A stretch of 64,000 nucleotides of DNA from Sphaerochaetaceae bacterium (GCA_963677635.2 CAXXXN010000002.1:4724-68723), one strand, 5' to 3'; shown: positions 12,115 through 56,675, counted from the first letter of the stretch. Made by a program: numbers and translations. The notes: a model not told the origin generated them from the letters alone.

Positions 12115-12129
12115 AATGAAGGTAATAAT

Positions 12130-12675: not shown

Positions 12676-12707
12676 TTTTATTAATTAAATTAATTGATTT
12701 TTGTTTT

Positions 12708-12735
12708 TTGAAATTGAATTTTAAGATAGTATAAA
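12708..12735 (+). promoter_or_regulatory. Possible internal promoter ahead of the KAP NTPase gene
   Basis: TTGAAA (12708-12713), 16-nt spacer, TATAAA (12730-12735) in the 81-nt gap. No terminator hairpin is seen in the gap. Confidence 0.3.
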
Positions 12736-12756
12736 AGGATAAAAATATTAAGGCTT

Positions 12757-14535: not shown

Positions 14536-14550
14536 TAGGAGTAAAAATAA

Positions 14551-15258
14551 ATGGGAACATCAGGGCCTTATAAAGGACAAAAAGGAATTTTACCCAGAAA
14601 AAAAGATGATGATATTACTTGGACAGTAGCGAAAACATTTATGTCAAAATATATTACATCCGGGGGGAATGTTGGTACACCTAAAACTGTAGTTAAAAAT
14701 TATTTTAAAGCTGCTAATGGTTCTAATTCCTTTTTAAATCAAACAAAAAAAATTATTAGTGTTATATCAGATTTTAACAACATTTTAGGAAGTTTTATAG
14801 AACAAGGGCTTGAAAAAACATTTGAGGAATTAGGGATATCAATAGTTGATAAAGATATAAATGAAGCTTTTTCTATGTTAATAAATGTTATTTGTCCTGA
14901 ATCTTCAACAAAAAACGATATTGCTTTAAGACTGGCTATTATAAATACGCTAGATTCCCTTAGTAATTTAGATGAAGGTATTGAAAAAATATTAAATAAT
15001 TTTGATTCTTCACATGTTGATCTTTTAATTGAGATTTTTATTTCTGAAATTTTTTGGCAAAATATTATGATAGATTATGGATTTTCATTTGAAAAATATG
15101 GGGAAGATACTGGGCAATTGGTTCTAAGAGAAAAAGAGATACAAGATTATATCTATACTGTTGTAAGTTTAGAGTATGATAAAAATAAACAAGCAACACT
15201 TTCAGAAAAAAATATTGCTGAATTATATAAGAAAGTTCTAATAATAATGGAGGATTAG
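14551..15258 (+). CDS. Small protein of unknown function, QatB-like by position, N-terminus Met-Gly
   Basis: AGGAG RBS 9 nt upstream. The protein starts MGTSGPYKGQKG and has no recognisable catalytic motif. It sits between the KAP NTPase and QueC-like genes as QatB does. Confidence 0.5.
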   Translation: MGTSGPYKGQKGILPRKKDDDITWTVAKTFMSKYITSGGNVGTPKTVVKNYFKAANGSNSFLNQTKKIISVISDFNNILGSFIEQGLEKTFEELGISIVDKDINEAFSMLINVICPESSTKNDIALRLAIINTLDSLSNLDEGIEKILNNFDSSHVDLLIEIFISEIFWQNIMIDYGFSFEKYGEDTGQLVLREKEIQDYIYTVVSLEYDKNKQATLSEKNIAELYKKVLIIMED

Positions 15259-15259
15259 T

Positions 15260-16540
15260 TTGAATATATATTGTACAAATGAAAAAATAGAACCTCAAGA
15301 ACCTTATGATTATTACATAGATTTATCTGATAAAAAAAAGGTTGGATATGCTTTTTGGGATAAAATCCTAAAATTCCCTAAAGAATATTCTCCACTTTCA
15401 ATTGATTTATTATTTATTTCAATATTTGTATTTTGTACTGACCGTCTGATAACAAGAGAAACTCAAAATGATTCATGGATTAGAAAAGCATGTTTAAATA
15501 TTCCAGTTTCATCTCCTGATTTTTGGGATATTGAGAAAAATAGTTTAATTACATTATTGAATTTTTTGAGTGGAGACAAATGGGATTTTATTTTTCGCCA
15601 AAAAGAATTTTTTAATGAAAAAAAATATTATAATTCATTAAAAGTAAAAAAAGTTGAGGTTAAGAATTATAAATATGTATGTATGTTATCAGGGGGGCTT
15701 GATTCATATATAGGTGCAATTGATTTATTAGAATCTCAAAATAAAAACATATTGTTTGTGAGTCATTATGGAGGTGGAAAGGGAACAAAAGAATATCAAG
15801 ATGCAATTTTTAAAATATTAAAAGATATTTATAAATTAAACAAAAAAGATTATATTCAATATTATGTAGCTTGTAAACATGCTAAAGAAGATTCTACTAG
15901 AACACGATCATTTATGTTCTTTTCTCATGCAATAGCGTTAGCTTCTGCTATGAAAGATAATGTCAAGTTAATAATTCCTGAGAATGGATTTATTTCTTTA
16001 AATATTCCTATTACACAAGCTCGCTTTGGTAGCAGTAGTACTAGAACAACTCATCCATTTTATATGAATTTGTTAAGGATTTTAGTTAAATCAATGGGGT
16101 TAAATTTAGAAATAATTAATCCTTATCAAACAAAAACTAAAGGTGAAATGATAAAAGAGTGTAAAAATATTAGTTTATTGGAAGATACATATTTTAATAC
16201 TATGTCTTGTTCTCATCCTGATCAAGGGAGATATAAAGGAATAAAGTATCCAATCCATTGTGGTTGTTGCATACCTTGTATAATTCGAAGAGCTGCAATT
16301 AACGAAGGGTTTTGCATAGATAGAACAGAATATTTAGATGAAAAAATAAATTTAAATGATACTGCTAAAATTAATAAAAATGCTTACAATTTAATGTTAA
16401 AGCGAAATGAAATGACTAATACAAAATTATTAATTCAAGAGTCAGGAGTTTTAGAAAAAGATATTTTGGAAATTGCAAATATGTTTGATCGAGGTGTAGA
16501 AGAAATAAAGAATTTTTTTATTTCTTTAGAGGATGAGTAA
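15260..16540 (+). CDS. qatC: QueC-like PP-loop ATPase (QatC-like)
   Basis: TTG start 1 nt after the preceding stop, with GGAGG 6 nt upstream. It carries the PP-loop CMLSGGLDS at about residue 140 and a C-terminal Cys cluster (CSHPD...HCGCCIPCIIRR) like the QueC zinc site. Confidence 0.7.
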   Translation: MNIYCTNEKIEPQEPYDYYIDLSDKKKVGYAFWDKILKFPKEYSPLSIDLLFISIFVFCTDRLITRETQNDSWIRKACLNIPVSSPDFWDIEKNSLITLLNFLSGDKWDFIFRQKEFFNEKKYYNSLKVKKVEVKNYKYVCMLSGGLDSYIGAIDLLESQNKNILFVSHYGGGKGTKEYQDAIFKILKDIYKLNKKDYIQYYVACKHAKEDSTRTRSFMFFSHAIALASAMKDNVKLIIPENGFISLNIPITQARFGSSSTRTTHPFYMNLLRILVKSMGLNLEIINPYQTKTKGEMIKECKNISLLEDTYFNTMSCSHPDQGRYKGIKYPIHCGCCIPCIIRRAAINEGFCIDRTEYLDEKINLNDTAKINKNAYNLMLKRNEMTNTKLLIQESGVLEKDILEIANMFDRGVEEIKNFFISLEDE

Positions 16541-16542
16541 TT

Positions 16543-16821
16543 TTGGATAATGATAAATTGAAAAATAAAGATAATTTAAATATATATTTATCATTAGAAG
16601 AGAAAAATGATATTAAATATGTTTTAATTCCAGATGAAAGTGTTTTTAGAAGATAAATCAAAGAAAAAGCCATTCTGCATCAAGACCAGTTTAATAAAGC
16701 AGGAAAGAATTTTGATTATTCTAAGAATGATGATGAATTTTTTTCAGAAGATATTTTTTATTTTAGAGATGAAAATTATATTGTTTTTGGAGATTATTCA
16801 ATAATTGAAGAGGATTTTTAA
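16543..16821 (+). pseudogene. Decayed ORF fragment of unknown family
   Basis: Frame 1 reads LDNDKLKNK...VFRR*IKEK...FGDYSIIEEDF*, with an in-frame TAA at 16654-16656. The reading continues in another frame at 16824. Confidence 0.4.
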
Positions 16822-16823
16822 CA

Positions 16824-17195
16824 TTAGGCTTTGCTTCATATGCAATTGCTATTCATATAGTATATTTTAGAAATAAAGAGTTAAGAGTTCATCATTTTGT
16901 TTCAGACTCAAATGAGGGTATTGAAAATCCTGCATTAAACAAATCAAATTTAAAAGATATTGAAGAACATATCTCTAAACCACATAAGAGGACCGATAAT
17001 AATTTAGATTATTTACCAACTCAATATATTGCTGATTTAATTAAGTCGCAATCTCTATTTGATGGAATAAAATTTAAAAGCACTTTATTTGATAAAGGGT
17101 TTAATATAGCTATTTTCAATCCTATTTTATTCAAATGTATTGCTGTAAATAACATTGAAATAAATTCAATTGAATACAATAGTACAAATTTATAA
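16824..17195 (+). pseudogene. Start-less ORF remnant with RES-domain-like C-terminus
   Basis: A 124-codon open frame with no Met. Its C-terminus (DYLPTQYIADLIKSQSLFDGIKFKSTLFDKGFNIAIFNP) resembles the Ser-containing C-terminal half of RES toxins. The N-terminal Arg/Glu half was not found. Confidence 0.35.
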
Positions 17196-17437
17196 TTCTA
17201 TTTAATCTATTCTTTTTTATTTAGGATTATAAAACAAGCCAAATATAGATATTATCTATTTAATAAGAATTTTGTTTTTGTCTGTATTTTATGGAGAATA
17301 ATATGCCTTTAATTCCTTTTGCGTATGAAATACTTGCCCCAATAATTTAGTGATATTTTATAAAAATATAAAAATTATCAAAAAATATTTACTTGAATTC
17401 AGTTTTTATCTACATATTATGTATAAAGTATATAAAA

Positions 17438-18523
17438 ATGAGTTTTACTGATTATAACAAATTAATAAAGGAATTATATATACCAGAAATAATTAATCTA
17501 ATTACAGGTATTTATGAATATAAGGGTAAACAACAATTATTTATAGAATCTAAGGCAGATGTGTTAGGCTCTTTATTAAATATTGCAGAAATTCAAAGTA
17601 TTGAATCTTCAAATAGAATTGAATGAATTTATACTTCAAATAAAAGAATAAAAGAATTAATTAATGATAGTACTAAACCAATCGATAGAAATGAAGAAGA
17701 AATATTAGGATATAGAGATGTATTCACAACAATACATGAGAATTATAATTTTATTTCTATTTCACCTAATATAATTTTACAACTTCACAGAGATTTATAT
17801 AAATATAATAATAACTATTTTGTTGGCATGTGGAAAAATTCTGATAATATTATTGAAGGAATTGATCAAAGTGGAAAACATTTTGTTAGATTTAAACCTT
17901 TAGCTGCATATAAAACCCCTGATGCTATGAGTTCACTTTGTGATGAATATAATAAAGCAATTATAGAAAATAAAATTTAACCTTTATTACTAATTACTAA
18001 ATTTATATTAGATTTTTTATGTATTCATCCTTTTCCTGATGGAAATGGAAGAATGAGTAGATTATTGACTATTTTATTGTTATATAAAGAAGGTTATCTA
18101 GTTCCTAAATATATTAGCTTTGAAAAGCTTATTGAAGATACAAAAGATGAATATTATATAAGCTTATATGAAAGTTCATTAGGTTGGGTAGCCAATAATA
18201 ATTCTAATATTCCATTTATTAAATATTACTTATAACTTTTATTAAAAGCATATAAAGAATTTTCATTAAGAGTAGATTTTATTGATATTAATTCAAAAAT
18301 AAGTAAAGGCGATAGAATTAAAAATATATTTGATGATATGTTAAATAGTTATTCCAAAGCTGATATTTTAAATATATGTCCAGATATAAGTAAAATTATG
18401 GTTGAGAAAACTCTTAATCAATTATTAAATGAAAAATTTATTATTAAACTAGGGCATAGCAAAAGTACAAAATATATTAGAAATAATACTTTGTGCGAAA
18501 GTGTAAAATTATCATATGTTTAA
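17438..18523 (+). pseudogene. Fic family protein gene inactivated by three in-frame stop codons
   Basis: A single frame throughout carries SIESSNRIE-TGA-IYTS, the Fic motif HPFPDGNGRMSR and a C-terminal wHTH. Stops are at 17624-17626 (TGA), 17977-17979 (TAA) and 18233-18235 (TAA). Confidence 0.8.
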
Positions 18524-18566
18524 AGTTTTAATACTAATATTAATTTAATATTATAATCACAATTTT

Positions 18567-18600
18567 AAGAGGCATATAAACTATTGTTTGAATGCCTCTT
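18567..18600 (+). terminator. Terminator-like hairpin
   Basis: AAGAGGCAT, a 16-nt loop, ATGCCTCTT, then a T-rich tail. It lies between convergent genes. Confidence 0.5.
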
Positions 18601-18715
18601 TCTATTGAATTTATATTTAAAGAAATAATGTCTTAGAATATTATATATGAATTAATAATAGCTTTAAGATATAATAAATATTCTTTTATTAAGCCTCAAG
18701 GTTATTTATTAATAT

Positions 18716-46151: not shown

Positions 46152-46171
46152 ATTTTGAGTGGTAAAAAATG

Positions 46172-46216
46172 AAGAGACTGTTGTTATATTTATTTGTAAT
46201 ATAGCAACAGTCTCTT
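46172..46216. terminator. Bidirectional terminator between convergent genes
   Basis: AAGAGACTGTTG ... CAACAGTCTCTT: a 12-bp perfect stem extended by AT pairs. Confidence 0.6.
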
Positions 46217-46317: not shown

Positions 46318-47148
46318 TTATTTTATTGTTGATTTTATTTTATTTATTAAATTATTTATTAGTTCAATATAATTTTTTGAATTTAAATATATTGTTGATT
46401 TAGTTCCTTTTTCTTGGTCTAAAACATTAATTATAAAAAAATATTTATTTTCAGTTTCACTATAAACAAATATACCTGATATGATATAATTTATCATATT
46501 ATCAAATTCTGTAGTATCAATGTTTTTTGATATGATTTCAATTTCCTTTTGAGATATTACGTTTGTAAATTCTTCCATTTTTTTTGAAACTAAATCTGTA
46601 ATATCAATATTTTCTTTTTTATTAAAAGTTGAGATATCTTTTATTAGAAAGATTTTATCCTTCAAGGAAATAGGTGATTCTGAAACTTGAAGGCTTTTTG
46701 AATTGATTGGTGTGCTATTTGGTGTGCTACTTGGTGTGCTACTTGGTGTGCTACTTGGTGTGCTACTTGGTGTGCTACTTGGTGTGCTACTTGGTGTGCT
46801 ACTTGGTGTGCTACTTGGTGTGCTACTTGGTGTGCTACTTGGTGTCAATTTTACAATTGGACTAGGTGTATAAGTGGAATAAGTTGATGTACTAGAACTA
46901 CTTCTATGGGAATAATGAGAACTATGCGAGCTGTGTGATCGATGAGAACTATGTGATCGATGTGCTGCTATAAGATTTGAATTTGTTGGTAAATTGCCAG
47001 AATATAGTGTGAAATTATTAAGATTTTTATAGTTTTTATCTGTCTCGTTATCTGAACTAGACGCGAATAATGATATATTTGTTTTTGTTGGAATTAAAAA
47101 TAATAATCCAAAAATTAATGATAAAAGTTTTCCTTTAATGTATTTCAT
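46318..47148 (-). CDS. hxsA: His-Xaa-Ser repeat protein HxsA (secreted)
   Basis: Signal peptide ending SLFA/SSS. It carries seven consecutive HXS triplets (HRSHSSHRSHSSHSSHYSHRS), a (TPSS)x10 linker and a C-terminal domain of about 125 aa. It lies downstream of two radical SAM genes. Confidence 0.8.
   Translation of the reverse strand: MKYIKGKLLSLIFGLLFLIPTKTNISLFASSSDNETDKNYKNLNNFTLYSGNLPTNSNLIAAHRSHSSHRSHSSHSSHYSHRSSSSTSTYSTYTPSPIVKLTPSSTPSSTPSSTPSSTPSSTPSSTPSSTPSSTPSSTPSSTPNSTPINSKSLQVSESPISLKDKIFLIKDISTFNKKENIDITDLVSKKMEEFTNVISQKEIEIISKNIDTTEFDNMINYIISGIFVYSETENKYFFIINVLDQEKGTKSTIYLNSKNYIELINNLINKIKSTIK
46708..46845 (-). repeat. 12-bp perfect tandem repeat (about 11.5 copies) encoding (TPSS)n
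   Basis: The unit TTGGTGTGCTAC is repeated head to tail. Ten copies are identical at the DNA level, and the terminal copies are degenerate. Confidence 0.95.
46900..46962 (-). repeat. Coding region of the seven His-Xaa-Ser triplets
   Basis: The reverse complement reads cat cga tca cat agt tct cat cga tca cac agc tcg cat agt tct cat tat tcc cat aga agt. Confidence 0.9.
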
Positions 47149-47149
47149 C

Positions 47150-48274
47150 TTATAGTCCTTTCACCTTATAGTTTATTGGTGTTATACAAGTATCTAAATA
47201 GTCCTTATTACTTGTTGCAAAGAATCCACCACAAATATCTCTCATCACACAGAATTTACATTCGGGTAAATAGTGTGTTTTCCAATCAGATATAGTTGGC
47301 ACACAGTATTCCCAAATTTTTTTATCCAATTTACAAACTTGATGATTAAATATATATATAGGTAAATTTCTTTGTTTTGCAAATTTAATTGCCTGAATTA
47401 ATTCAATATTATAGTTATATTGTGAAATAAATAATTGCTTAGCATTTTTATTAGCTTCTCCTGAATATTCCATTCCAATCAAAGCTAGTCTTTTTATATA
47501 AGGTAAATTATCGTAACAAAAAATAATAAAAGATGGTAATCGAATATAATTTAGTTTGTTTATAATAAAACGCAGTTCAATTTTTTGGTTGAAAGCTGCT
47601 AAATAATGTAATGATTTAATTGTATCCCAGAAAGATCCTTTTTTCTGGGTTAATCTATCATGAATTTCTGCAATATCAGCATATAAAGCTATGCAAAAAG
47701 TTACATCGATTTGTTTTTCAATAATAAAATTTAATAAATCTGTATTTTTATATATATTCATTGCATTTGTTAATATATCAATTTGTAAGTTTTTATTTTT
47801 GCTATGTAAACGGTTCATGATTTCGATTAAATAGTTTATATCTAAGGTTGGTTCTCCTCCGGTAAGTCCAATTTGAGTAATATTTTTGTTGAGCAAATCA
47901 ATTATTTCAAAATTTTTTTTGGGTAAATTGACTATTTTATTTTTATCAATTTGAGGGCAATTAATACAATTCAAATTACAGTGGTTATTAACTAACAAAG
48001 AATTATCATTTGAATTTGTTGAAATATGTAAGATAATTTGATTATCTTTTGTTAGTTCTATGATATCATTTATTTGAAATAAAGGGTCATTTTTTATATA
48101 AATAGAATTTTTTATTTTTGGGGAATTTGTAATGTAAATTTTTTTAATATTAAAATTTTCATGAACCCTTACAGAATATATAAATAAATTAAGATTCTTT
48201 TTTATTTTAATTATTTTCCCTATTAAATATTCAGGTAAAATTATTGTTGATGTTAAATAGTTTAATGTTTTCAT
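47150..48274 (-). CDS. hxsC: Radical SAM/SPASM maturase HxsC-like
   Basis: CxxxCxxC cluster (CNLNCINC) and a C-terminal CKFCVMRDICGG SPASM-like motif. ATGA overlap with the upstream gene. Confidence 0.75.
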   Translation of the reverse strand: MKTLNYLTSTIILPEYLIGKIIKIKKNLNLFIYSVRVHENFNIKKIYITNSPKIKNSIYIKNDPLFQINDIIELTKDNQIILHISTNSNDNSLLVNNHCNLNCINCPQIDKNKIVNLPKKNFEIIDLLNKNITQIGLTGGEPTLDINYLIEIMNRLHSKNKNLQIDILTNAMNIYKNTDLLNFIIEKQIDVTFCIALYADIAEIHDRLTQKKGSFWDTIKSLHYLAAFNQKIELRFIINKLNYIRLPSFIIFCYDNLPYIKRLALIGMEYSGEANKNAKQLFISQYNYNIELIQAIKFAKQRNLPIYIFNHQVCKLDKKIWEYCVPTISDWKTHYLPECKFCVMRDICGGFFATSNKDYLDTCITPINYKVKGL

Positions 48275-49701
48275 AAAACAACCTCATTATATTTTCTATA
48301 AGTAACCCAACTCCAAAAAACATCTAAATATTTATCATCTTCTAAAATTAATTTAAATAATATATCAATAATTCCTTTATGTTTAATACAATTATTATCT
48401 TCAATATTTAAATTCTTTTCTTGATATTTTCTCACAGCATCTTTTCCACAATAGGGAATATATGGACATAAAAAGCATTCTTTTTCTGCTTCAACAATAT
48501 TGTTTTCGACAATCTTATGTAATTTCTCATTATTAAAAATTTGTTGATAATTGTCAAAAAATATATTTCCTATCTCAAAAGTATTATCCTGGTTTTTTGC
48601 TAACATCCTAGCTTCATCTGACACATAAACTTTACCTTCTATGTCGTAAACTGCACAGCCTATTCCATCGCCTGTAGGAGATTGGATATCTACAAAACCA
48701 TTAGAAAAGGGAGTTAAAATTTTTCTTAAAAAAATGCATGCAAATTCTTCTCGTATTAAAGTTCCTAAAATATTTTTTTGTAAAATGTATCTAAGACCTT
48801 TTTCATAATTATTTAAATAATCTTTCATTGAATAGGACAAAAATTTTTTTGTTTTTTCAGCCATTCCATAGGGATTTATAGGTCTAAAAAAAATTGAATT
48901 TAAGTTTAATTTGATATAAGTATCAACACATTCTTCGATCCTAAATATTGAATCTTTTGTTATTGTCATTAAAGCAGAAACTTTGTCTTGCCCATATTGT
49001 TTTTGGATATATTCAATATTATTACATACCAGTTCAAAATTATTTTGATCACTGATAGCTTTCCTATTTTTGTTATGTATATCTTGAGGCCCATCTATCG
49101 AGGTTGATAAATAAATATTGTTCTTTATAATAAAATTAATTTGTTTTTGATTAAGAAATATTAAATTTGTGCATAAGATATATTCAATATATTTCTTAGC
49201 AGTTTTATTTAAAAATTTCATATAATTTACTATAAATATTAAAGTTTCAAAATTTAAGGTAGGTTCTCCCCCTTGAAATTCAATTTTGATAGAATTTGAG
49301 GGACTTTGAATAATTTTTTTGCAGACTTCTTTAGCTGTTGTAATAGACATGTTTAAGTGATTATTAATGTAATGTGAATTACTGCTTGCCTGGCAATAAG
49401 AGCAGTTAGAATTACAATTGTGAGAAAGTATAATAATATGAAGGGTTGTGAAATAATTTAGAAAATCTTTTTTTGTCCTTAGTTTTATAGCCATTTCTTC
49501 AAGAGTTTCATTTAATATTTCATTTTCACATAAAAAAAAAGTACTAGTTAAATCGTTTAATAAATTTTTATCTAATTTCTCAGGATTATTTAGCAAATCT
49601 AAGAAATCTTTTTTTGATACAAACTTATATTGGCCTAATTCATTAATTAATAATAAGTTATCATTAATTTGTTTATATCTAAAAGGTAATAATTTAATCA
49701 T
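48271..49701 (-). CDS. hxsB: Radical SAM/SPASM maturase HxsB-like
   Basis: CxxxCxxC cluster (CNSNCSYC), QGGEPTL, and a C-terminal CFLCPYIPYCG SPASM-like motif. 476 aa. Confidence 0.75.
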   Translation of the reverse strand: MIKLLPFRYKQINDNLLLINELGQYKFVSKKDFLDLLNNPEKLDKNLLNDLTSTFFLCENEILNETLEEMAIKLRTKKDFLNYFTTLHIIILSHNCNSNCSYCQASSNSHYINNHLNMSITTAKEVCKKIIQSPSNSIKIEFQGGEPTLNFETLIFIVNYMKFLNKTAKKYIEYILCTNLIFLNQKQINFIIKNNIYLSTSIDGPQDIHNKNRKAISDQNNFELVCNNIEYIQKQYGQDKVSALMTITKDSIFRIEECVDTYIKLNLNSIFFRPINPYGMAEKTKKFLSYSMKDYLNNYEKGLRYILQKNILGTLIREEFACIFLRKILTPFSNGFVDIQSPTGDGIGCAVYDIEGKVYVSDEARMLAKNQDNTFEIGNIFFDNYQQIFNNEKLHKIVENNIVEAEKECFLCPYIPYCGKDAVRKYQEKNLNIEDNNCIKHKGIIDILFKLILEDDKYLDVFWSWVTYRKYNEVVL

Positions 49702-49966
49702 AATTTATTGGACTAAATGCTTTTTTATATAAAATCTTTCTAATTTCAGAAACCTTATTCTCTATATAAAATGAATTTTGAATATAAATTATTTCATTTT
49801 TAATATCTTTTATTTGCTTTTGTGAAAGCTCTTCATCAGTTTCAAGAATCCAAGAATTATTAAATTCGTTAATTGAAAATTTTTTATTGGTATTTAAAAA
49901 CCAAATCAATGATTCTTTTTGAATTAATGATTTAAGTATATTTATAGTTGCCATCATAAACCTCAT
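49694..49966 (-). CDS. hxsD: Small HxsD-like protein
   Basis: About 86-90 aa. It overlaps the hxsB start by 8 nt. The assignment rests on position and size. The GAGG inside the first codons suggests the true start is the ATG at 49954. Confidence 0.5.
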   Translation of the reverse strand: MRFMMATINILKSLIQKESLIWFLNTNKKFSINEFNNSWILETDEELSQKQIKDIKNEIIYIQNSFYIENKVSEIRKILYKKAFSPINYD

Positions 49967-50041
49967 TATTTTAAATATATTATACTATATAATTAGTTTT
50001 ATTCATACAATTATTTTTTAGTCTACTTAAGACTAAAATTA

Positions 50042-50074
50042 TTAAAGGGTAATTAAAATTTAATTACCCTTTAA
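50042..50074. terminator. 33-bp near-perfect palindrome between the GntR gene and the hxs operon
   Basis: TTAAAGGGTAATTAAA, a, TTTAATTACCCTTTAA. It lies just downstream of the 50105 stop on the minus strand. Confidence 0.55.
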
Positions 50075-50104
50075 TATTTAAAACTTTAAATATAAAAATT
50101 ATAT

Positions 50105-50752
50105 TTAGGAAGAAATATTATTTAATAGTTTAAAAGCACTAGTTTTAGAATTTTGTAAATGATTAATTAAAGCTAGAGAAGCTTCTTCCCAATTTTCTGT
50201 TAAAAGATGATTTATGATAGTAATATGTTCTTCCTGACCCAATTCAATTCTATTTGAATAATCAGATCCAGATAATATTCTAAGTCTTTTGTTTTGAGCA
50301 GAAATTATTCCATAAAAAATTTTTAGGTAATTGTTAGAAAGACAATTAATAATTAAATCATGAAAACTATCATCTAGTTCTATAACTTTTTCTTTTGTTA
50401 ATGGATTTTCATTTTGACCTTGATAATATTTAAGATATTCTAATAAAGTGTTGCTTTCAATTTTATATCCATATTTTTTGATAGCATATGGTTCTATCAA
50501 CAATCTAACTTCGAATATTTTGTTGATTTCTGCTATTGTAATAGGAGAAATCAAAATGCCTTTTTTTGGTTTGATTTGAATTAGACCTTCTTGTTCTATT
50601 CTACCTAGGGCATCTCTAATAGGGGTTCGACTTATGTTTAGATCAGTTTTTAGCTGTTCTTCATTTATCATTGAGCCTGGTTTATATACACAGTCTACTA
50701 TATTCTGTTTGATCAAATTGTATGCTTGTAGTTTTAAAGACTCTTGTTTCAT
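50105..50752 (-). CDS. GntR family transcriptional regulator (FCD-type)
   Basis: wHTH segment INEEQLKTDLNISRTPIRDALGRIEQEGLIQIKPKKGI. Confidence 0.85.
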   Translation of the reverse strand: MKQESLKLQAYNLIKQNIVDCVYKPGSMINEEQLKTDLNISRTPIRDALGRIEQEGLIQIKPKKGILISPITIAEINKIFEVRLLIEPYAIKKYGYKIESNTLLEYLKYYQGQNENPLTKEKVIELDDSFHDLIINCLSNNYLKIFYGIISAQNKRLRILSGSDYSNRIELGQEEHITIINHLLTENWEEASLALINHLQNSKTSAFKLLNNISS

Positions 50753-51473: not shown

Positions 51474-52493
51474 ATGAAAGAATTAAAAATCAACAAACCA
51501 AGAAATGTTGTCATTTTAGATACTGATATGCCTAAAAGAAAAAAAGGTGAAGCTCTACTTAAAATGCTTTATGGTGGTATTTGTGGTAGCGATTTAGGAG
51601 CCTATAGAGGCACTTTTGCATATTTTTCTTATCCAAGAACTCCAGGACATGAATTGTCGATGCAAATAGTAGATATTGATGAAAATGATTTAGGTCTTGA
51701 AAAAGGTATGATTGTAACAGCTAATCCATATTTTAATTGTGGTGAATGCTATTCCTGTCATAATAATAAACTAAATGTATGCATGCACAATGAAACTATG
51801 GGAGTTCAACGTGAAGGTGGGTTTTCCCAGTTTTTAACACTTCCAATTGAGAGATTGTATGATAGTAAAGGCTTAGATCCAAAAGTCTTGGCTGTTATTG
51901 AACCCTTTTGTATAAGTTATCATGGAGTAAAAACTGCTAATGTACAAAAAGGTGAAAATGTTTTAATACTTGGTGCAGGAACAATTGGAATTTTAGCGGC
52001 TATTTCAGCTCTAGCTAAAGGCGCCAATGTTTGGGTTGCAGATGTTTCTGAAGGAAAATTAGAAATTGCTAAAACTTTTGGTATCAACGGTACAATTTTA
52101 AATGATACAAATGAAAATTTTATTAAGCAAGTAAATGAAATTACAAACAATAATGGATTTGATGTAACTATCGAAGCTGTTGGATTACCTTCAACTTTCC
52201 AAAATTGTATAGATGCTGCTTGTTTTGGTGGCAGAATGGTTTTGATAGGAATTGGTAAACAAAATTTAGATTTTAATTTTACTATAATTCAAAAGAAGGA
52301 ACTTAGTATCTTTGGTTCAAGAAATGCATTAAAAGAAGATTTCATTGAACTAATTGATTTAGTTAAATCAGGTAAAATTCCATTAGAAAAAGTAATTACT
52401 AATACATATAAATTTGAAGACGCACAACAAGCTTTTTCAGATTTTGATAAAAATTCAGGAGATATGCTTAAAGTAATACTAGATTTTACTTAA
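51474..52493 (+). CDS. Zinc-dependent medium-chain alcohol / polyol dehydrogenase
   Basis: GICGSDL, GHE, the structural zinc cluster CGECYSCHNNKLNVC, and the Rossmann motif GAGTIG. Confidence 0.85.
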   Translation: MKELKINKPRNVVILDTDMPKRKKGEALLKMLYGGICGSDLGAYRGTFAYFSYPRTPGHELSMQIVDIDENDLGLEKGMIVTANPYFNCGECYSCHNNKLNVCMHNETMGVQREGGFSQFLTLPIERLYDSKGLDPKVLAVIEPFCISYHGVKTANVQKGENVLILGAGTIGILAAISALAKGANVWVADVSEGKLEIAKTFGINGTILNDTNENFIKQVNEITNNNGFDVTIEAVGLPSTFQNCIDAACFGGRMVLIGIGKQNLDFNFTIIQKKELSIFGSRNALKEDFIELIDLVKSGKIPLEKVITNTYKFEDAQQAFSDFDKNSGDMLKVILDFT

Positions 52494-52525
52494 GCAAAAT
52501 TATATACACATTAAAGGAGCCATTT

Positions 52526-53557
52526 ATGAAAAAAAGGTTAATTATTGGATTATTAATGGGAGCAATGTGCTTACCAGCAATGTTTGCAAATGGAAGTTCA
52601 GAAGCAAAAGCTACTGAAACACAAAACAAAGTAGTGACAATTCAAGTTGGATATGAAAATGCAACTTCAGAACCAGCTGCAAAAGCAGTTGAAAAATGGA
52701 AACAAATTGTAGAAGAAAAAAGTAATGGTTCTATTAAGTTAGAATTATTCCCTAACTCTGCTTTAGGAAAGAAAACCGAGATTATTGACCAAATGATTTT
52801 AGGTGAACCTGTTATTACAGTAGCTGATGGTGCTTTTCTAGCAGACTATGGCATAGCTGATTTTGGTATTTTCTATGCTCCATTTATGTTTGATAACTGG
52901 GACGAAGAATGGAATGTAATTAATAGCGATTGGTATGCTGGATTATGTGATCAACTTGCAAGTAAAGCTGGAATTAGAGTAATGTCTTCTAACTGGATTT
53001 ATGGTGCAAGAGATATGCTAACTGTAAAGAAAGTTGTAATGCCTGAAGATTTAAATGGTGTTAAATTAAGAGTATCATCAAATAAATTATCTATTGAAAG
53101 TTTCAATGATTTAGGTATTTCTTCTGTTGGTATGGATATGAGTGATGTTTATCAAGCTTTACAAGCAAAAACTATTGATGGTGTAGAAAATCCAATTGTT
53201 TCTCTTGCAAATAGAAGTTTCCAAGAAGTTGCAAAGTATTTAGTAAAAGATAATCATATTTTAGCTGTTTCAATGTGGATTTGTGGTGAAGATTTCTTTA
53301 ACACTTTAACAAAAGATCAACAAAAGATCTTAATTGATGCTGCAAATGAAGCAGGATTATATAATAATGAATTACAAGCTTCTGCAAATGAAGTAGCAAC
53401 ACAAATCTTAATTGATGATGGTGTTGAAATTACTGAACTTACTCCAGAACAAAAAGCTGCATGGAATGAAGCTGGTCAAAAATTCTTTAATCACGCTTCA
53501 GAAAAATTAGGTTGGAGTGAAAACCTATACCAAACTGTTAAAAACGCAGCTAAGTAA
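52526..53557 (+). CDS. TRAP transporter substrate-binding protein (DctP family)
   Basis: Signal peptide ending MFANG. 343 aa, followed by DctQ- and DctM-type genes. Confidence 0.85.
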   Translation: MKKRLIIGLLMGAMCLPAMFANGSSEAKATETQNKVVTIQVGYENATSEPAAKAVEKWKQIVEEKSNGSIKLELFPNSALGKKTEIIDQMILGEPVITVADGAFLADYGIADFGIFYAPFMFDNWDEEWNVINSDWYAGLCDQLASKAGIRVMSSNWIYGARDMLTVKKVVMPEDLNGVKLRVSSNKLSIESFNDLGISSVGMDMSDVYQALQAKTIDGVENPIVSLANRSFQEVAKYLVKDNHILAVSMWICGEDFFNTLTKDQQKILIDAANEAGLYNNELQASANEVATQILIDDGVEITELTPEQKAAWNEAGQKFFNHASEKLGWSENLYQTVKNAAK

Positions 53558-53578
53558 ATAAATTAATGTAGGGATAAC

Positions 53579-54100
53579 ATGAATAAGGAAAAAATTAAAT
53601 ACAATATTATTCACCTTGATGTATATGTAGCTTCAATATCTATGGCTATATTGGTAGGAGTTACATTTTTAGGTGTTATTATGAGATATGTAGTAGGGAA
53701 ACCATTTGGATGGATTGAAGAAATTCAAGCTTTTCTAATTGTTTGGGTCGTATTTTTAGGTGCTGGTTCGGCTTATAGAACTGGGAATCATGCTAGAATT
53801 GAGTTTTTATATGATAAGTTCAATCCTCATGTCAAAAAAATATTAGACTTAGTTATAAGTATTATTGCAACAATAGTAATTGGTTTCTTTTTATATGCAA
53901 GTATAAAATATATTGGATTATTTATTAAAACAGGACGAAAAACTTCTGTATTACAATTTTCTTATGTAGCCATTTATTCTGTTGTCCCTATCTCGTGTAT
54001 ATTACAATTAATAAATTATTTCGTAGTAGAGGTTTTTCATAAATGGGATGAAAAAGAATCTATTATTATAGAAAGCTCAGAGGAGAAGGACAATGCATAA
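53579..54100 (+). CDS. TRAP transporter small permease (DctQ family)
   Basis: 173 aa with 4 TM helices. Confidence 0.8.
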   Translation: MNKEKIKYNIIHLDVYVASISMAILVGVTFLGVIMRYVVGKPFGWIEEIQAFLIVWVVFLGAGSAYRTGNHARIEFLYDKFNPHVKKILDLVISIIATIVIGFFLYASIKYIGLFIKTGRKTSVLQFSYVAIYSVVPISCILQLINYFVVEVFHKWDEKESIIIESSEEKDNA

Positions 54101-55379
54101 TGTAATAATATTCGCATCAATACTTTTATTAGTATTATTATTTATTAAGGTGCCAGTATATCTTTCAGTACTCGCGGCTTCAGTTACTTATTTTTTATTT
54201 ACTCCGAAGATGAACATAATGATTTTTGCACAAAAAGTTATTAGTGGTACAGAAAGTCTTTCATTATTAGCTATACCATTCTTTGTTTGTGCAGGTATCT
54301 TTATGAACTACACTGGAGTAACAAAACGTATTATGAATTTTTGTGTTGTCATTACAGGTAGAATGTCTGGTGGTCTAGCTCAAGTTAATGTATTACTATC
54401 AACTCTTATGGGAGGTCTTTCAGGTTCCAGTTTAGCTGATGCAGCTATGGAAGCTAAAATGTTAGTTCCTACCATGGAAAAAAATGGTTATTCTAAAGCT
54501 TTTTCTTCAGTAATCACTGCAGCCTCAGGTATGGTTGTACCATTAATTCCACCAGGGGTTGGGCTTATTATTTATGGATGTATTAATAATATATCTATTG
54601 GTAAACTATTTATTGCAGGTATTGGTCCAGGATTATTTATGTGTGTTACATTAATGATTTATGTACACTTTTTATCTATAAAAAGGGGTTATTTACCAGT
54701 AAGAGAAGATAAAATTTCTGTAAAGGAAAAAGTTGAAGCTTTTAAACCTGCATTTTTCCCTTTACTTCTACCTATAATTATTATTGGTGGTGTTCGTATT
54801 GGAGTATTTACAGCATCAGAAGCTGGAACTGTGGCTATTGTATATGCTGTTCTTTTAGGATTATTTTATCGTGAATTAGGATGGACAGAAGTTAAGAAGA
54901 GTTTATCTGAAACTGTTACTACTACAGCTTCAATTATGTTAATTGTTGCAGCAGCCTCAGCTTTCTCTTGGATATTAACAAAAGAATCTATTCCACAAAG
55001 TTTCTCCTTGTGGATGATTAGTGTAATTCATAATAAATATGTATTTTTGATTATGGTAAATGTTTTCTTATGGTTTGTTGGTATGTTTATCGAAGGAAAT
55101 GCTTCAATGATTGTATTAGCCCCATTGTTAGCTCCGGTTGCAGCTTCATATGGTATTGATCCAATTCATTTTGCAATGGTATACATATTTAACTGTACTA
55201 TTGGAGCATTTACGCCTCCAATGGGAACTTTAATATTTGTTACTTGTGGTGTAACTCATTGTCCAACTAGTGACTTTATAAAAGAATCAATACCATTCTA
55301 CTTCCTATTTCTTGCTGATTTGATTATATTGACATATTTCCCACCACTATCAACATTTTTAGTTAATTTAATTTATTAG
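54093..55379 (+). CDS. TRAP transporter large permease (DctM family)
   Basis: 428-aa polytopic protein that overlaps the dctQ-like gene by 8 nt. Confidence 0.85.
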   Translation: MHNVIIFASILLLVLLFIKVPVYLSVLAASVTYFLFTPKMNIMIFAQKVISGTESLSLLAIPFFVCAGIFMNYTGVTKRIMNFCVVITGRMSGGLAQVNVLLSTLMGGLSGSSLADAAMEAKMLVPTMEKNGYSKAFSSVITAASGMVVPLIPPGVGLIIYGCINNISIGKLFIAGIGPGLFMCVTLMIYVHFLSIKRGYLPVREDKISVKEKVEAFKPAFFPLLLPIIIIGGVRIGVFTASEAGTVAIVYAVLLGLFYRELGWTEVKKSLSETVTTTASIMLIVAAASAFSWILTKESIPQSFSLWMISVIHNKYVFLIMVNVFLWFVGMFIEGNASMIVLAPLLAPVAASYGIDPIHFAMVYIFNCTIGAFTPPMGTLIFVTCGVTHCPTSDFIKESIPFYFLFLADLIILTYFPPLSTFLVNLIY

Positions 55380-55388
55380 GAGAAAATA

Positions 55389-56675
55389 ATGGATTATTCT
55401 TTAATTTCAAAGATTTTAGAAGAAACTGAAATACCTCGATTTTTTAAAGTTCGTCAGATATTTCCTAGACCTAAAATTGATGTTGCTGATATTCCTGGAA
55501 AAATTAGTGAATTATTAAGTGAACCAAAATTTTCAGATCAAATTAAACCTGGTATGAGAATTGCAATTACTGTGGGTTCAAGAGGTGTTGCTAATGTTGC
55601 ATTAACAACTAAGTGTATTGTTGATTTTGTTAAACAGAAAAAGGCTTTCCCTTTTATTGTTCCTTCCATGGGTAGTCATGGAGGAGCAACTGCTGAAGGT
55701 CAAAGAAAAATAGTTGAAGGCTATGGTGTTACTGAAGAATATATTGGTTGTCCGATTCTATCTTCAATGGAAGTAAAAAAAATAGGACAAACAGATGATG
55801 GTTTAGATGTTTATATTGATAAAAATGCCGCTGAAGCAGATGGTATTATTGTAGGTTGTAGAATTAAACCACATACTGCTTTTAGAGGTCCTTATGAAAG
55901 TGGAATCATGAAGATGATGGCAATTGGATTAGGAAAACAGTATGGTGCTCAAGTTTGTCATGAAGCAGGATTTAAAAATATGCATAAAAATGTACCATTG
56001 TTTGGTCGTGCAATTTTAAAACATGCGCCTATTCTTTTTGCTGTTCCAACTATTGAAAATGCATTTGATGAGACAAGTGAAATTTTTGCAATTAACAGTG
56101 ATGAAGTTGATGAAAAAGAGCCTCAGATTTTGAAAAAAGCTTTCAGCTTGATGCCTAAAATTTGGGAAAAATCATGTGATGTACTAGTCGTTGACCATAT
56201 TGGAAAAAATTATAGTGGTGATGGAATGGATCCTAATATTACTGGAACATTTTGTACCCCTTATGCAACTGGTGGAATAGATGCTCAAAGAGTATGTGTT
56301 TTAGATTTGAGTGAAGAGACTCATGGTAACGGAATTGGTTTAGGTTATGCTAATGCAACAACAAAGAGAGTTTTTGATAAACTTGATTTAGAATCTATGT
56401 ATCCTAATGCTATTACTTGTACTGTTTTGGGTGGAGTAAGAATTCCAATTATTATGAAAAATGATGAAGAGACTTTGAAAGTTTGTATTCAAACTTGCAA
56501 TGAAATTGACAAAAAGAATCCTAAAATAGTAAGAATTCCAAATAGTTTATTTTTGGAACATGTTTTATTAAGTGAAGCTTATTATGATGAGGCTGTTAAT
56601 AATCCTAATTTAGTTATCGAGAGTGATTTGGAATATCTTCCTTTTGATGATAGTGGTAATTTATTAGATTTATAA
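55389..56675 (+). CDS. LarA-N-terminal-like (DUF2088-type) domain protein, function unknown
   Basis: 428-aa soluble protein with ITVGSRGVANV and PSMGSHGGATAEGQ segments. I associate these with lactate-racemase-domain proteins. Not verified. Confidence 0.35.
   Translation: MDYSLISKILEETEIPRFFKVRQIFPRPKIDVADIPGKISELLSEPKFSDQIKPGMRIAITVGSRGVANVALTTKCIVDFVKQKKAFPFIVPSMGSHGGATAEGQRKIVEGYGVTEEYIGCPILSSMEVKKIGQTDDGLDVYIDKNAAEADGIIVGCRIKPHTAFRGPYESGIMKMMAIGLGKQYGAQVCHEAGFKNMHKNVPLFGRAILKHAPILFAVPTIENAFDETSEIFAINSDEVDEKEPQILKKAFSLMPKIWEKSCDVLVVDHIGKNYSGDGMDPNITGTFCTPYATGGIDAQRVCVLDLSEETHGNGIGLGYANATTKRVFDKLDLESMYPNAITCTVLGGVRIPIIMKNDEETLKVCIQTCNEIDKKNPKIVRIPNSLFLEHVLLSEAYYDEAVNNPNLVIESDLEYLPFDDSGNLLDL

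What the first reader, a model, noticed from the sequence alone, without database searches (positions are those of the whole stretch)
46318..49966. Complete His-Xaa-Ser (HxsDBCA) radical SAM system with an unusually large secreted HxsA
The minus-strand operon has overlapping or abutting genes:
- a small protein of about 88 aa
- a 476-aa radical SAM enzyme (CNSNCSYC, plus the SPASM-like CFLCPYIPYCG)
- a 374-aa radical SAM enzyme (CNLNCINC, plus CKFCVMRDICGG)
- a 276-aa protein with seven consecutive His-Xaa-Ser triplets (HRSHSSHRSHSSHSSHYSHRS)

This matches the HxsD/HxsB/HxsC/HxsA system. As far as I know, that system was defined only by comparative genomics (TIGRFAMs), and its chemistry and biological role are unknown.

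Here HxsA does not look like a short RiPP precursor. It has a cleavable signal peptide, the HXS block about 30 residues after the cleavage site, a (TPSS)10 linker and a C-terminal domain of about 125 aa. That suggests modification of a secreted or surface protein, possibly a metal-binding His/Ser crosslinked motif.
Basis: partly seen in the sequence, partly recalled or inferred. Interest (0 to 1): 0.8.

Follow-up and report, generated by a model that had tools for sequence, protein, structure and literature searches.

The report
Spirochaete HXS phage-defence operon, variant effector
This is a four-gene HxsD-B-C-A operon, a system shown in 2026 to block phage DNA entry in E. coli, found here in a Sphaerochaetaceae spirochaete whose secreted His-Xaa-Ser effector has a lineage-specific domain of unknown fold where the usual peptidoglycan-binding domain would be.

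Summary

HxsB (483.8 bits, cutoff 370) and HxsC (271.6, cutoff 267.9) pass NCBIfam's curated cutoffs. HxsD (20.5, cutoff 50) and HxsA (31.9, cutoff 121.65) do not.

- The role is no longer unknown. Li et al., Nat Commun 2026 (PMC13128918), showed that HXS is an antiphage system. HxsB, C and D mature HxsA (N-terminal processing and +8 Da on SHRSS). [quoted passage not shown]
- Canonical HxsA is not a short peptide. It is about 190-214 aa, with a signal peptide, an HxS array, a Ser-rich linker and a C-terminal PG_binding_1 domain. Being secreted and multi-domain is therefore normal.

What differs here:
- The host is a Sphaerochaetaceae MAG; 99.7% of reported systems are in Pseudomonadota.
- There is no PG_binding_1. 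A ~125-aa domain with no Pfam or PDB sequence match takes its place, shared by about 10 related operons.
- The (TPSS)10 linker is a 12-bp tandem repeat whose copy number differs between two strains.
- HxsD lacks the LLNDYxLRE motif.

Five of seven related loci lie next to defence genes.

Verdict: a new variant of a known kind, of moderate interest.

The parts
49694..49966 (-). hxsD-like small protein. The maximal ORF is 90 aa; the likely start is Met4/Met5 at about 49954-49957.
   Evidence: TIGR03976 is the only NCBIfam hit, but it is below cutoff (20.5 vs 50 bits). Four of six clade homologues hit only this family, best E 4.4e-6. It has the same size and position as canonical HxsD and overlaps hxsB by 8 nt. 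LIW replaces LYW, LLNDYxLRE is absent, and the clade motif is IRxxLYxKAF.
48271..49701 (-). hxsB, radical SAM maturase, 476 aa
   Evidence: TIGR03978 483.8 bits against a cutoff of 370, covering the full length. It is 26% identical to Klebsiella HxsB, E 6e-57. The CX3CX2C Cys (C96/C100/C103) and C409/C412/C418/C438 are conserved through to Klebsiella.
47150..48274 (-). hxsC, radical SAM maturase, 374 aa
   Evidence: TIGR03977 271.6 bits against a cutoff of 267.9. It is 30% identical to Klebsiella HxsC, E 9e-43. C99/C103/C106 and C314/C339/C342/C348 are conserved.
46318..47148 (-). hxsA-like effector precursor, 276 aa
   Evidence: Below every HxsA cutoff: TIGR03979 31.9 vs 121.65, and the HxsA2/3/4 models are also sub-threshold. 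It shares the core AAHRSHSSHRSHSSH and a terminal SHRSS with Klebsiella HxsA. It lies immediately downstream of hxsC.
47062..47148 (-). Predicted Sec signal peptide, residues 1-29, with cleavage inferred at LFA|SSS
   Evidence: Hydrophobic core LLSLIFGLLFLI. Ala29 is invariant in the clade. There is no Cys, so it is not a lipoprotein.
46969..47061 (-). Conserved pre-repeat segment, residues 30-60, containing NFTLY. It is the counterpart of E. coli residues 23-47, which are needed for defence.
   Evidence: F46, T47, L48 and Y49 are invariant in clade alignment A4. An LNxxxL-type motif aligns with Klebsiella and Halomonas HxsA. The requirement for E. coli residues 23-47 is.
46900..46962 (-). Seven tandem His-Xaa-Ser repeats, residues 63-83. 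The last one, together with flanking Ser, forms SHRSS.
   Evidence: SHRSS is the site of the +8 Da modification in E. coli. Residues 61-86 have pI 11.7.
46707..46845 (-). 12-bp tandem repeat encoding (TPSS)10 within the S/T/P linker (residues 84-150, window 46699-46899). Copy number is variable.
   Evidence: TRF gives 11.6 copies at 99% matches. A 96%-identical strain (L006) has a 272-aa HxsA with one unit fewer.
46321..46698 (-). C-terminal domain, residues 151-276. It belongs to a lineage-specific family of unknown fold and takes the place of PG_binding_1.
   Evidence: No Pfam hit at E<=10. No PDB sequence hit. An exhaustive phmmer search of 1.84 billion representatives gave only 2 spurious hits. 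The domain is conserved in L009, L010 and L011 (A5). It is alignable with L014-L017, L019 and P0001 (A8; the links are).
46163..46216 (-). Intrinsic terminator after hxsA: hairpin at 46172-46216 followed by UCAUUUUUU
   Evidence: RNA fold -20.7 kcal/mol, z-score -7.7, and 0 of 200 shuffles fold as well.
50040..50076 (-). Terminator-like hairpin between the upstream GntR/FCD gene (50105-50752) and hxsD. It marks the 5' boundary of the operon.
   Evidence: 17-bp stem. The GntR gene is not found next to hxs in any related locus except the near-identical strain L006.

Best explanation
This is an HXS antiphage defence operon (hxsD-hxsB-hxsC-hxsA) of a divergent lineage found in Sphaerochaetaceae and related uncultured bacteria.

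Proposed mechanism, by homology with the E. coli system:
1. In the cytoplasm, the two radical SAM enzymes HxsB and HxsC act on the HxsA precursor together with the small partner HxsD. Each enzyme has a CX3CX2C cluster and one four-Cys auxiliary cluster.
2. They install a covalent modification on the last His-Xaa-Ser repeat (here YSHRSSSS; +8 Da in E. coli).
3. They also promote N-terminal processing.
4. HxsA is exported through its N-terminal signal sequence to the periplasm of this diderm spirochaete.
5. There the basic array of seven HxS repeats (pI about 11.7) interferes with incoming phage DNA.

What is shown and what is inferred:
- Shown here: the gene content, the family membership of HxsB and HxsC, conservation of all cluster cysteines, conservation of the HxS core and of SHRSS, and the defence-gene neighbourhoods of relatives.
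- Inferred by homology: the modification, the export and the block to DNA entry.

Lineage-specific differences:
- The peptidoglycan-binding anchor, which is essential in E. coli, is replaced by an unrelated ~125-aa domain. I infer that this domain positions the effector on another envelope component.
- The anchor is joined to the warhead by an S/T/P linker whose (TPSS)n length varies between strains.
For: - HxsB and HxsC exceed the curated equivalog cutoffs, and no other family comes close.
- The order is D-B-C-A with translationally coupled junctions. The operon has its own terminator and is insulated from the upstream gene.
- All seven Cys per enzyme that are conserved to Klebsiella are present. 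They include the positions equivalent to those whose mutation abolished or reduced HxsA cleavage in E. coli.
- The HxsA core AAHRSHSSHRSHSSH and the terminal SHRSS align with Klebsiella and Halomonas HxsA.
- The published function and mechanism of the E. coli system are in PMC13128918.
- Relatives of this clade sit beside defence genes: a UG9-type DRT reverse transcriptase plus its RT-associated PolA in L001 (474.6 and 305.2 bits); three ThsB-like TIR genes and a TIR/LD_cluster2 gene in L010; AbiLii/RloB in L011 and L013; AAA_13 (603 bits) and an AbiEii fragment in L015.
- The operon's GC is 24.2% against 29% in the flanks, and copies occupy different loci in different genomes. This is the pattern of a mobile accessory module.
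Against: - HxsA and HxsD fail their curated cutoffs.
- The HxsD LLNDYxLRE motif is absent. Its D61A/R65A mutant abolished defence in E. coli.
- The PG-binding domain is absent. Mutating it abolished defence in E. coli.
- HxsB and HxsC are only 26-30% identical to the characterised type.
- In this window the immediate neighbours are metabolic genes and give no PADLOC hits.
- No experiment exists for any non-proteobacterial HXS system.
- The E. coli mechanism itself (DNA binding versus channel blockade, and the chemistry of +8 Da) is unresolved.
Confidence: 0.65

Rival explanations
1. One reading: HxsA is a secreted or surface metal-binding protein. Its His/Ser array is crosslinked by the radical SAM enzymes into a metal site (Ni, Zn or Cu handling, or a redox cofactor), with no role in immunity.
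For: - Seven His at fixed three-residue spacing form a plausible metal ligand array.
- The immediate neighbours in the window are metabolic and transport genes, not defence genes.
- The chemistry of the modification is unsolved even in E. coli.
Against: - The only experimental data for the family show antiphage function, with each repeat and SHRSS required.
- Five of seven related loci are flanked by defence genes.
- No metal transporter or metallochaperone is conserved next to the operon in L001, L006, L009-L011 or L013-L015.
Confidence: 0.1
2. A RiPP-type pathway: HxsA is a precursor from which a small modified His/Ser-rich peptide is cut out and released as a bacteriocin or signal. The linker and C-terminal domain would be dispensable carrier sequence.
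For: - HxsB's nearest non-Hxs relatives are peptide maturases such as PapB, CcpM and SCIFF.
- The conserved segment before the repeats resembles a leader or recognition sequence.
- HxsBCD-dependent proteolysis occurs in E. coli.
Against: - No peptidase or exporter gene lies in or next to the operon in any locus examined.
- In E. coli the product retained in the periplasm spans residues ~48-214, including the C-terminal domain, which is required.
- The C-terminal domain is conserved within the clade. That argues it is functional.
Confidence: 0.07
3. An envelope-maintenance factor specific to wall-weakened Sphaerochaetaceae. The matured HxsA would be a structural periplasmic tether (anchor domain, extended TPSS spacer and basic array) rather than an immune effector.
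For: - Cultured Sphaerochaeta lack penicillin-binding proteins and have a non-rigid wall (PMC3372971).
- The anchor domain is lineage-specific.
- The linker length varies between strains.
Against: - The operon is sporadic. It sits at different loci, has lower GC and is next to transposase or defence genes in relatives. That is not the pattern of a core envelope gene.
- Only 14 HxsC relatives with E<1e-20 were found among 5.8 billion proteins.
Confidence: 0.05

Closest known systems
HXS antiphage system of E. coli/Klebsiella (HxsD, HxsB, HxsC, HxsA; Li et al., Nat Commun 2026, PMC13128918; NCBIfam TIGR03976-TIGR03979)
   Same: - Four genes in the order D-B-C-A.
- Two radical SAM enzymes that pass the HxsB and HxsC equivalog cutoffs, with the same conserved Cys.
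- A small HxsD-sized partner.
- A secreted HxsA with the core AxHRSHSSHRSHSSH, a terminal SHRSS and a Ser-rich linker.
   Different: - The host is a Sphaerochaetaceae spirochaete rather than a member of the Pseudomonadota.
- There are 7 repeats instead of 5.
- There is no PG_binding_1; an unassigned ~125-aa domain takes its place.
- The linker is a repeat-expanded (TPSS)10.
- HxsD lacks LLNDYxLRE.
- HxsA and HxsD are below the curated cutoffs.
- The enzymes are only 26-30% identical.
NCBIfam variant families HxsA2 (NF038296), HxsA3 (NF038309), HxsA4 (NF038313) and HxsC4 (NF038332)
   Same: These are recognised sequence variants of His-Xaa-Ser repeat proteins and their maturases. The window's HxsA gives weak hits to all three HxsA variants through the repeat block.
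   Different: - Those profiles are 81-96 positions long.
- The scores here are 21-30 bits against cutoffs of 48-65.
- HxsC here matches the main HxsC model, not HxsC4 (31.4 vs 500). It is therefore none of the catalogued variants.
Radical SAM/SPASM-twitch peptide and protein maturases (PapB ranthipeptide maturase, anaerobic sulfatase maturase anSME, SCIFF maturase)
   Same: They are the next-best families for HxsB (110.6, 92.3 and 75.8 bits). They share the CX3CX2C cluster plus a C-terminal Cys-rich auxiliary-cluster domain. anSME likewise modifies a Ser or Cys of a full-size protein destined for export.
   Different: - The scores are far below those families' cutoffs.
- Only four C-terminal Cys are conserved, not the seven or eight of a full SPASM domain.
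- The substrate is a His/Ser repeat array, and the product chemistry (+8 Da) is unknown.
Phage-encoded superinfection exclusion proteins acting at DNA entry (T4 Imm and Sp)
   Same: They act at the same step in the E. coli HXS model, which is the blocking or delaying of genome entry at the envelope. Li et al. discuss the comparison.
   Different: They are unrelated in sequence, phage-encoded and narrow in spectrum, and they involve no enzymatic maturation.

Membership tests
HXS system (HxsDBCA) | HxsB-type radical SAM enzyme scoring above the TIGR03978 cutoff | tested here: met
   483.8 bits vs 370, with profile positions 1-466 of 466 aligned.
HXS system (HxsDBCA) | HxsC-type radical SAM enzyme scoring above the TIGR03977 cutoff | tested here: met
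   271.6 bits vs 267.9, which is marginal. It is 30% identical to Klebsiella HxsC, E 9e-43.
HXS system (HxsDBCA) | A radical SAM CX3CX2C cluster plus a second Cys cluster in both enzymes | tested here: met
   HxsB has C96/100/103 and C409/412/418/438. HxsC has C99/103/106 and C314/339/342/348. All are conserved across the clade and in Klebsiella.
HXS system (HxsDBCA) | HxsD: TIGR03976 above cutoff, with the LYW and LLNDYxLRE motifs | tested here: not met
   20.5 bits vs 50. LIW stands in place of LYW, and LLNDYxLRE is not recognisable. hhalign of the clade profile against Klebsiella HxsD gives E 0.046. Remote homology is still likely: TIGR03976 is the only family hit, and 4 of 6 clade members hit it. 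Size and position are also the same.
HXS system (HxsDBCA) | HxsA: at least five tandem His-Xaa-Ser repeats downstream of a signal sequence, with the last repeat in an SHRSS context | tested here: met
   Seven repeats at residues 63-83, ending in YSHRSSSS. The N-terminal hydrophobic segment is shown.
HXS system (HxsDBCA) | HxsA scoring above the TIGR03979 cutoff (or the cutoffs of the HxsA2-4 variants) | tested here: not met
   31.9 vs 121.65; HxsA2 30.4 vs 48; HxsA4 23 vs 55; HxsA3 21.2 vs 65.
HXS system (HxsDBCA) | C-terminal peptidoglycan-binding domain (PF01471) in HxsA, which is required for defence in E. coli | tested here: not met
   The C-terminal domain gives no Pfam hit at E<=10. None of 5 clade HxsA proteins hits PF01471 at E<=1. 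Canonical HxsA hits do carry PF01471.
HXS system (HxsDBCA) | Gene order hxsD-hxsB-hxsC-hxsA in one operon | tested here: met
   The same order is seen in L001, L009, L010, L011 and L014.
HXS system (HxsDBCA) | Antiphage activity through delayed DNA entry; HxsBCD-dependent N-terminal cleavage and a +8 Da modification | not testable with these tools
   Known only for the E. coli system.
RiPP biosynthetic cluster (short precursor plus radical SAM maturase) | A short precursor peptide with leader and core, plus a dedicated peptidase and/or exporter | tested here: not met
   The precursor is 276 aa with a conserved C-terminal domain. No peptidase or exporter is present in the operon or conserved nearby.
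Defence-island resident | Adjacent to known defence genes | tested here: inconclusive
   The window's immediate neighbours are metabolic genes with no PADLOC hits. CBASS and Qat genes lie 30 kb away. Relatives L001, L010, L011, L013 and L015 are adjacent to DRT, ThsB-TIR, AbiLii or AAA_13/AbiEii genes. No statistical enrichment test was done.

The most novel reading that the evidence does not exclude
The HXS effector is modular: a conserved radical-SAM-matured HxS 'warhead', a flexible spacer and an interchangeable envelope anchor.

In Sphaerochaetaceae the peptidoglycan-binding anchor has been replaced by a new domain family. Cultured members of this family lack penicillin-binding proteins and have a non-rigid wall. 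The new domain would dock the effector onto a different periplasmic or membrane target. The strain-variable (TPSS)n repeat would tune how far the warhead reaches.

If so, these variants show that peptidoglycan binding as such is not part of the mechanism. They would also offer natural domain swaps for working out where in the envelope phage DNA entry is intercepted.
Probability: 0.35. Interest if true: 0.55.

Novelty: new variant of a known kind. Interest (0 to 1): 0.4.

Why it matters
HXS is a defence system reported to act on phage genome entry. How the matured HxsA does this is unresolved.

In E. coli the peptidoglycan-binding domain and the HxsD LLNDYxLRE motif are both needed. This spirochaete lineage keeps the enzymes, the repeat core and the modified SHRSS site, but lacks both of those features.

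That separates what is universal from what is host-specific:
- Universal: the HxS array, SHRSS, two radical SAM enzymes and a small partner.
- Host-specific: the anchor, the linker and the HxD motif.

The finding also extends a system reported as 99.7% proteobacterial to the Spirochaetota. It shows that HxsA-based surveys and the current HxsA and HxsD models miss such variants. Searches anchored on HxsB or HxsC would find them.

It is not a new kind of system, and the open chemistry question (+8 Da) is the same as in E. coli.

Tried and rejected
Searches and predictions that led nowhere:
1. Exact-sequence look-ups of the window's HxsA and HxsB, and of P0043 (the HxsC match reported as 100% identical), found nothing on record.
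2. A full-length HxsA search gave only weak hits through the repeat block or the TPSS low-complexity region. The PADLOC 'REase_II' hit on HxsA covers the TPSS linker and was rejected as compositional.
3. An exhaustive phmmer search with the C-terminal domain against 1.84 billion representatives gave two hits. Both are repetitive, unrelated proteins and were rejected.
4. A profile search with the four-sequence C-terminal alignment A5 in the 5.8-billion-protein collection returned nothing, not even its own members. This is probably a word-index limitation and says little.
5. AlphaFold2 on the C-terminal domain as a single sequence gave pLDDT 53.6. Foldseek against the PDB then had a best E of 0.23 and TM about 0.18, which is meaningless. 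The P0001 C-terminal domain gave pLDDT 41.9.
6. Profile searches of A5 and A8 against PDB sequences gave nothing credible. The best hit was CIP2A at E 0.022, a helical repeat protein.
7. The first metagenome scan, with the HxsB alignment, picked uninformative N-terminal patterns and found nothing. The viral-contig scan also found nothing.

Ideas considered and not adopted:
8. From memory, the beta-alpha...'x-G-x-V...Y-V...' beta-hairpin plus terminal-helix pattern of the C-terminal family resembles LpoB/TolB-N/CsgG-like periplasmic alpha/beta domains. I could not test this, and it is only a lead.
9. The GntR/FCD gene upstream was considered as a regulator of the operon. It was rejected because a terminator-like hairpin intervenes and it is absent from all related loci except the near-identical strain.

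Full report
**1. The observation**

- 49966..49694, 90 aa
- 49701..48271, 476 aa
- 48274..47150, 374 aa
- 47148..46318, 276 aa

The first two junctions overlap by 8 and 4 nt. The third reads TAA-g-ATG.

Every quoted motif is present. The array HRSHSSHRSHSSHSSHYSHRS (residues 63-83, window 46900-46962) is the only run of three or more in-phase H-x-S triplets in any frame of the window. No run longer than 3 appeared in 100,000 shuffles of the protein.

The (TPSS)10 stretch is encoded by a near-perfect 12-bp tandem repeat at 46707-46845 (11.6 copies, 99% matches).

A strong hairpin followed by a U-tract closes the operon (46172-46216; -20.7 kcal/mol, z -7.7). A terminator-like hairpin at 50040-50076 separates it from the upstream GntR/FCD gene.

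**2. Family assignment**

Against NCBIfam:
- The 476-aa protein scores 483.8 bits to TIGR03978 (HxsB, cutoff 370).
- The 374-aa protein scores 271.6 bits to TIGR03977 (HxsC, cutoff 267.9).
- The small protein hits only TIGR03976 (HxsD), at 20.5 bits against a cutoff of 50.
- The repeat protein hits TIGR03979 (HxsA) at 31.9 bits against 121.65, with sub-threshold hits to the HxsA2, A3 and A4 variants.

Pfam sees only Radical_SAM and Fer4_12 in the enzymes and nothing in HxsA or HxsD.

**3. What is known**

Li et al. (Nat Commun 2026, PMC13128918) reported the following for an E. coli hxsDBCA operon:
- It restricts 110 of 113 coliphages without abortive infection and without blocking adsorption.
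- T7 escape mutations map to the ejectosome proteins gp15 and gp16.
- Genome entry is delayed from about 10 min to 30-50 min.
- HxsA has a signal peptide (residues 1-22), five HxS repeats and a C-terminal peptidoglycan-binding domain.
- HxsB, HxsC and HxsD are all needed for N-terminal cleavage of HxsA and for its accumulation in the periplasm.
- A +8 Da modification maps to SHRSS in the last repeat.
- Each repeat, the SHRSS residues, the signal peptide and the PG-binding domain are all required.
- HxsC binds HxsD.
- 99.7% of systems are in Pseudomonadota, and 99.6% have the order D-B-C-A.

The canonical HxsA is therefore already a secreted, multi-domain protein. The 'unusually large, not a RiPP precursor' contrast does not hold.

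**4. Host and relatives**

The window is 96.2% identical over 14 kb to a MAG annotated as a Sphaerochaetaceae bacterium (CAXXHV010000002.1).
- That strain carries the same operon at the same locus. HxsD is identical, HxsB differs at 2 residues and HxsC at 5.
- Its HxsA is 272 aa and has one TPSS unit fewer. The linker is therefore a variable-number repeat.

Compared with a complete Klebsiella plasmid operon (L008), HxsB is 26% identical and HxsC 30% identical.

A search of 5.8 billion proteins with HxsC found only 14 relatives at E<1e-20. They include proteins from Sphaerochaetaceae and Pleomorphochaeta MAGs that NCBI already names HxsC.

Contexts were retrieved for these relatives and for five further metagenome loci. 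They all show the order D-B-C-A followed by an HxsA-like gene. The one exception is L013, where no HxsD gene was called.

**5. Conserved and changed features**

Conserved:
- All radical SAM and auxiliary-cluster cysteines are conserved across the clade and through to Klebsiella: HxsB C96/100/103 and C409/412/418/438, and HxsC C99/103/106 and C314/339/342/348. That is one four-Cys auxiliary site per enzyme rather than a full SPASM set.
- The HxsA core A-x-HRSHSSHRSHSSH and the terminal SHRSS align with Klebsiella and Halomonas HxsA.
- A pre-repeat segment containing NFTLY is invariant in the clade. It corresponds to the E. coli region 23-47, which is needed for defence.

Changed:
- HxsD has LIW where LYW stands and has no LLNDYxLRE. 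The clade instead has a C-terminal IRxxLYxKAF motif.
- The HxsA C-terminal domain is not PG_binding_1.
- This domain has no Pfam, PDB-sequence or library-wide sequence relatives.
- It is 36-45% identical among the Sphaerochaetaceae and Pleomorphochaeta operons L009-L011 (A5).
- It can be aligned end to end with the C-termini of L014-L017, L019 and P0001 (A8). The linking evidence is a BLASTP E of 4e-7 between L014 and P0001 and a weak hhalign E of 0.013 between A5 and L014.
- I regard this as one divergent, clade-specific domain family, with moderate confidence.
- Its fold could not be determined. Single-sequence AlphaFold2 models had pLDDT 53.6 and 41.9, and Foldseek found nothing.

Other non-proteobacterial HxsA-like proteins carry yet other small C-terminal domains. 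The anchor therefore appears to be an exchangeable module.

**6. Context**

In the window, the genes on either side of the operon are metabolic or transport genes: TrpA-like, Fe-ADH, BtpA, a nucleoside phosphorylase, an ABC transporter, and a DctP-like solute-binding protein that suggests a TRAP transporter. The neighbours scanned gave no meaningful PADLOC hits.

Relatives are different:
- L001 lies beside a UG9-type defence reverse transcriptase and its PolA partner.
- L010 lies beside three ThsB-like TIR genes and a TIR/LD_cluster2 gene.
- L011 and L013 lie near AbiLii/RloB genes.
- L015 lies beside an AAA_13 ATPase and an AbiEii fragment.
- L009 lies beside an ISL3 transposase fragment.

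The operon's GC content is 24.2% against about 29% in the flanks. Together these features fit a mobile defence module. I did not run a formal enrichment test.

**7. Mechanism**

Most likely (confidence about 0.65), the operon works like the E. coli HXS system:
- HxsA is matured in the cytoplasm by HxsB and HxsC with HxsD.
- It is exported.
- The basic HxS array (pI 11.7 for residues 61-86) then interferes with phage DNA entry in the periplasm.

The steps from modification onward are inferred by homology.

The replaced anchor is notable because cultured Sphaerochaeta lack penicillin-binding proteins and have a non-rigid wall (PMC3372971). Whether that explains the domain swap is speculation. 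I also did not check whether this MAG lacks PBPs.

Rival readings are a metal-binding secreted protein, a released RiPP and a structural tether. None is excluded, but each is less well supported. Details are in the rival explanations section.

**8. Verdict**

The finding is a real and correctly recognised HxsDBCA operon. It belongs to a system whose function has been published since 2026. It is a lineage variant with a new effector anchor, a repeat-variable linker and a divergent HxsD, in a phylum where the system was considered sporadic.

Novelty: new variant of a known kind. Interest: moderate (0.4). It is useful as a natural experiment on which parts of HXS are essential, but it is not a new type of system.

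Noticed in passing
window 11305-16540 (+): A defence island lies about 30 kb from the hxs operon. It holds a CBASS-type oligonucleotide cyclase (11305-12114, PADLOC 406 bits) with a 2TM effector (12130-12675, 210 bits). These are followed by QatA (12757-14535, 295.9 bits), QatB (14551-15258, 50.5 bits) and QatC (15260-16540, 376.4 bits). No QatD/TatD-like ORF follows.
   Followed up: partly
window 16541-18715: This ~2.2-kb stretch has no ORF of 150 aa or more; its longest ORF is 77 aa. By eye, several fragments (17393-17626, 17828-17980, 18053-18235, 18338-18523) look like pieces of a Fic-like gene, probably pseudogene debris at the edge of the defence island. This was not tested. There is no Rfam or tRNA hit.
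   Followed up: no
window 46707-46845 vs L006 8554-9372: The (TPSS)n repeat differs by one unit between two strains that are 96% identical (276 vs 272 aa HxsA). At 50% GC, the repeat stands out from the 23% GC of the rest of the operon.
   Followed up: partly
L018 2149-2538: An HxsA homologue from another metagenome has an independent tandem-repeat linker, (YKAPSTTT)n, cut off by the contig end. Repeat expansion of the spacer appears to have happened more than once in this clade.
   Followed up: no
L013 7086-7571: In a high-GC relative, HxsA (161 aa) has five His-Ala-Ser repeats (HASHASHASHASHAS). By eye its C-terminus resembles a peptidoglycan-binding domain, but this was not tested. No HxsD gene was called upstream, and AAA_21 and RloB/AbiLii genes are nearby.
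   Followed up: no
L001 5676-8877: The locus containing P0001, the closest HxsA homologue in the full-length HxsA search, is followed by a UG9-small defence reverse transcriptase (474.6 bits) and an RT-associated PolA (305.2 bits). A small Bflower-domain (PF21784) gene lies directly after hxsA in three independent contigs.
   Followed up: partly
L010 2013-5722: In a Sphaerochaetaceae MAG (GCA_028532815.1), hxsDBCA lies next to three ThsB-like TIR genes and a 683-aa TIR_2/LD_cluster2 protein. This looks like a Thoeris-like cluster without a recognisable ThsA.
   Followed up: partly
window 50105-50752 (-) and 51474-56675 (+): A GntR/FCD regulator (215 aa) is transcribed divergently from a cluster that includes a Zn-dependent-dehydrogenase-like ORF, a DctP-like solute-binding protein and a LarA_N-domain protein. 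It is probably their regulator rather than part of hxs. Only the GntR and LarA_N assignments come from Pfam; the other two are read from the translations.
   Followed up: partly
Tool behaviour: The profile search with the C-terminal alignment A5 returned no hit in the 5.8-billion-protein collection. Yet homologous genes are called on contigs of that collection (L009-L011). Low-complexity, AT-rich-genome proteins may escape the word index.
   Followed up: no
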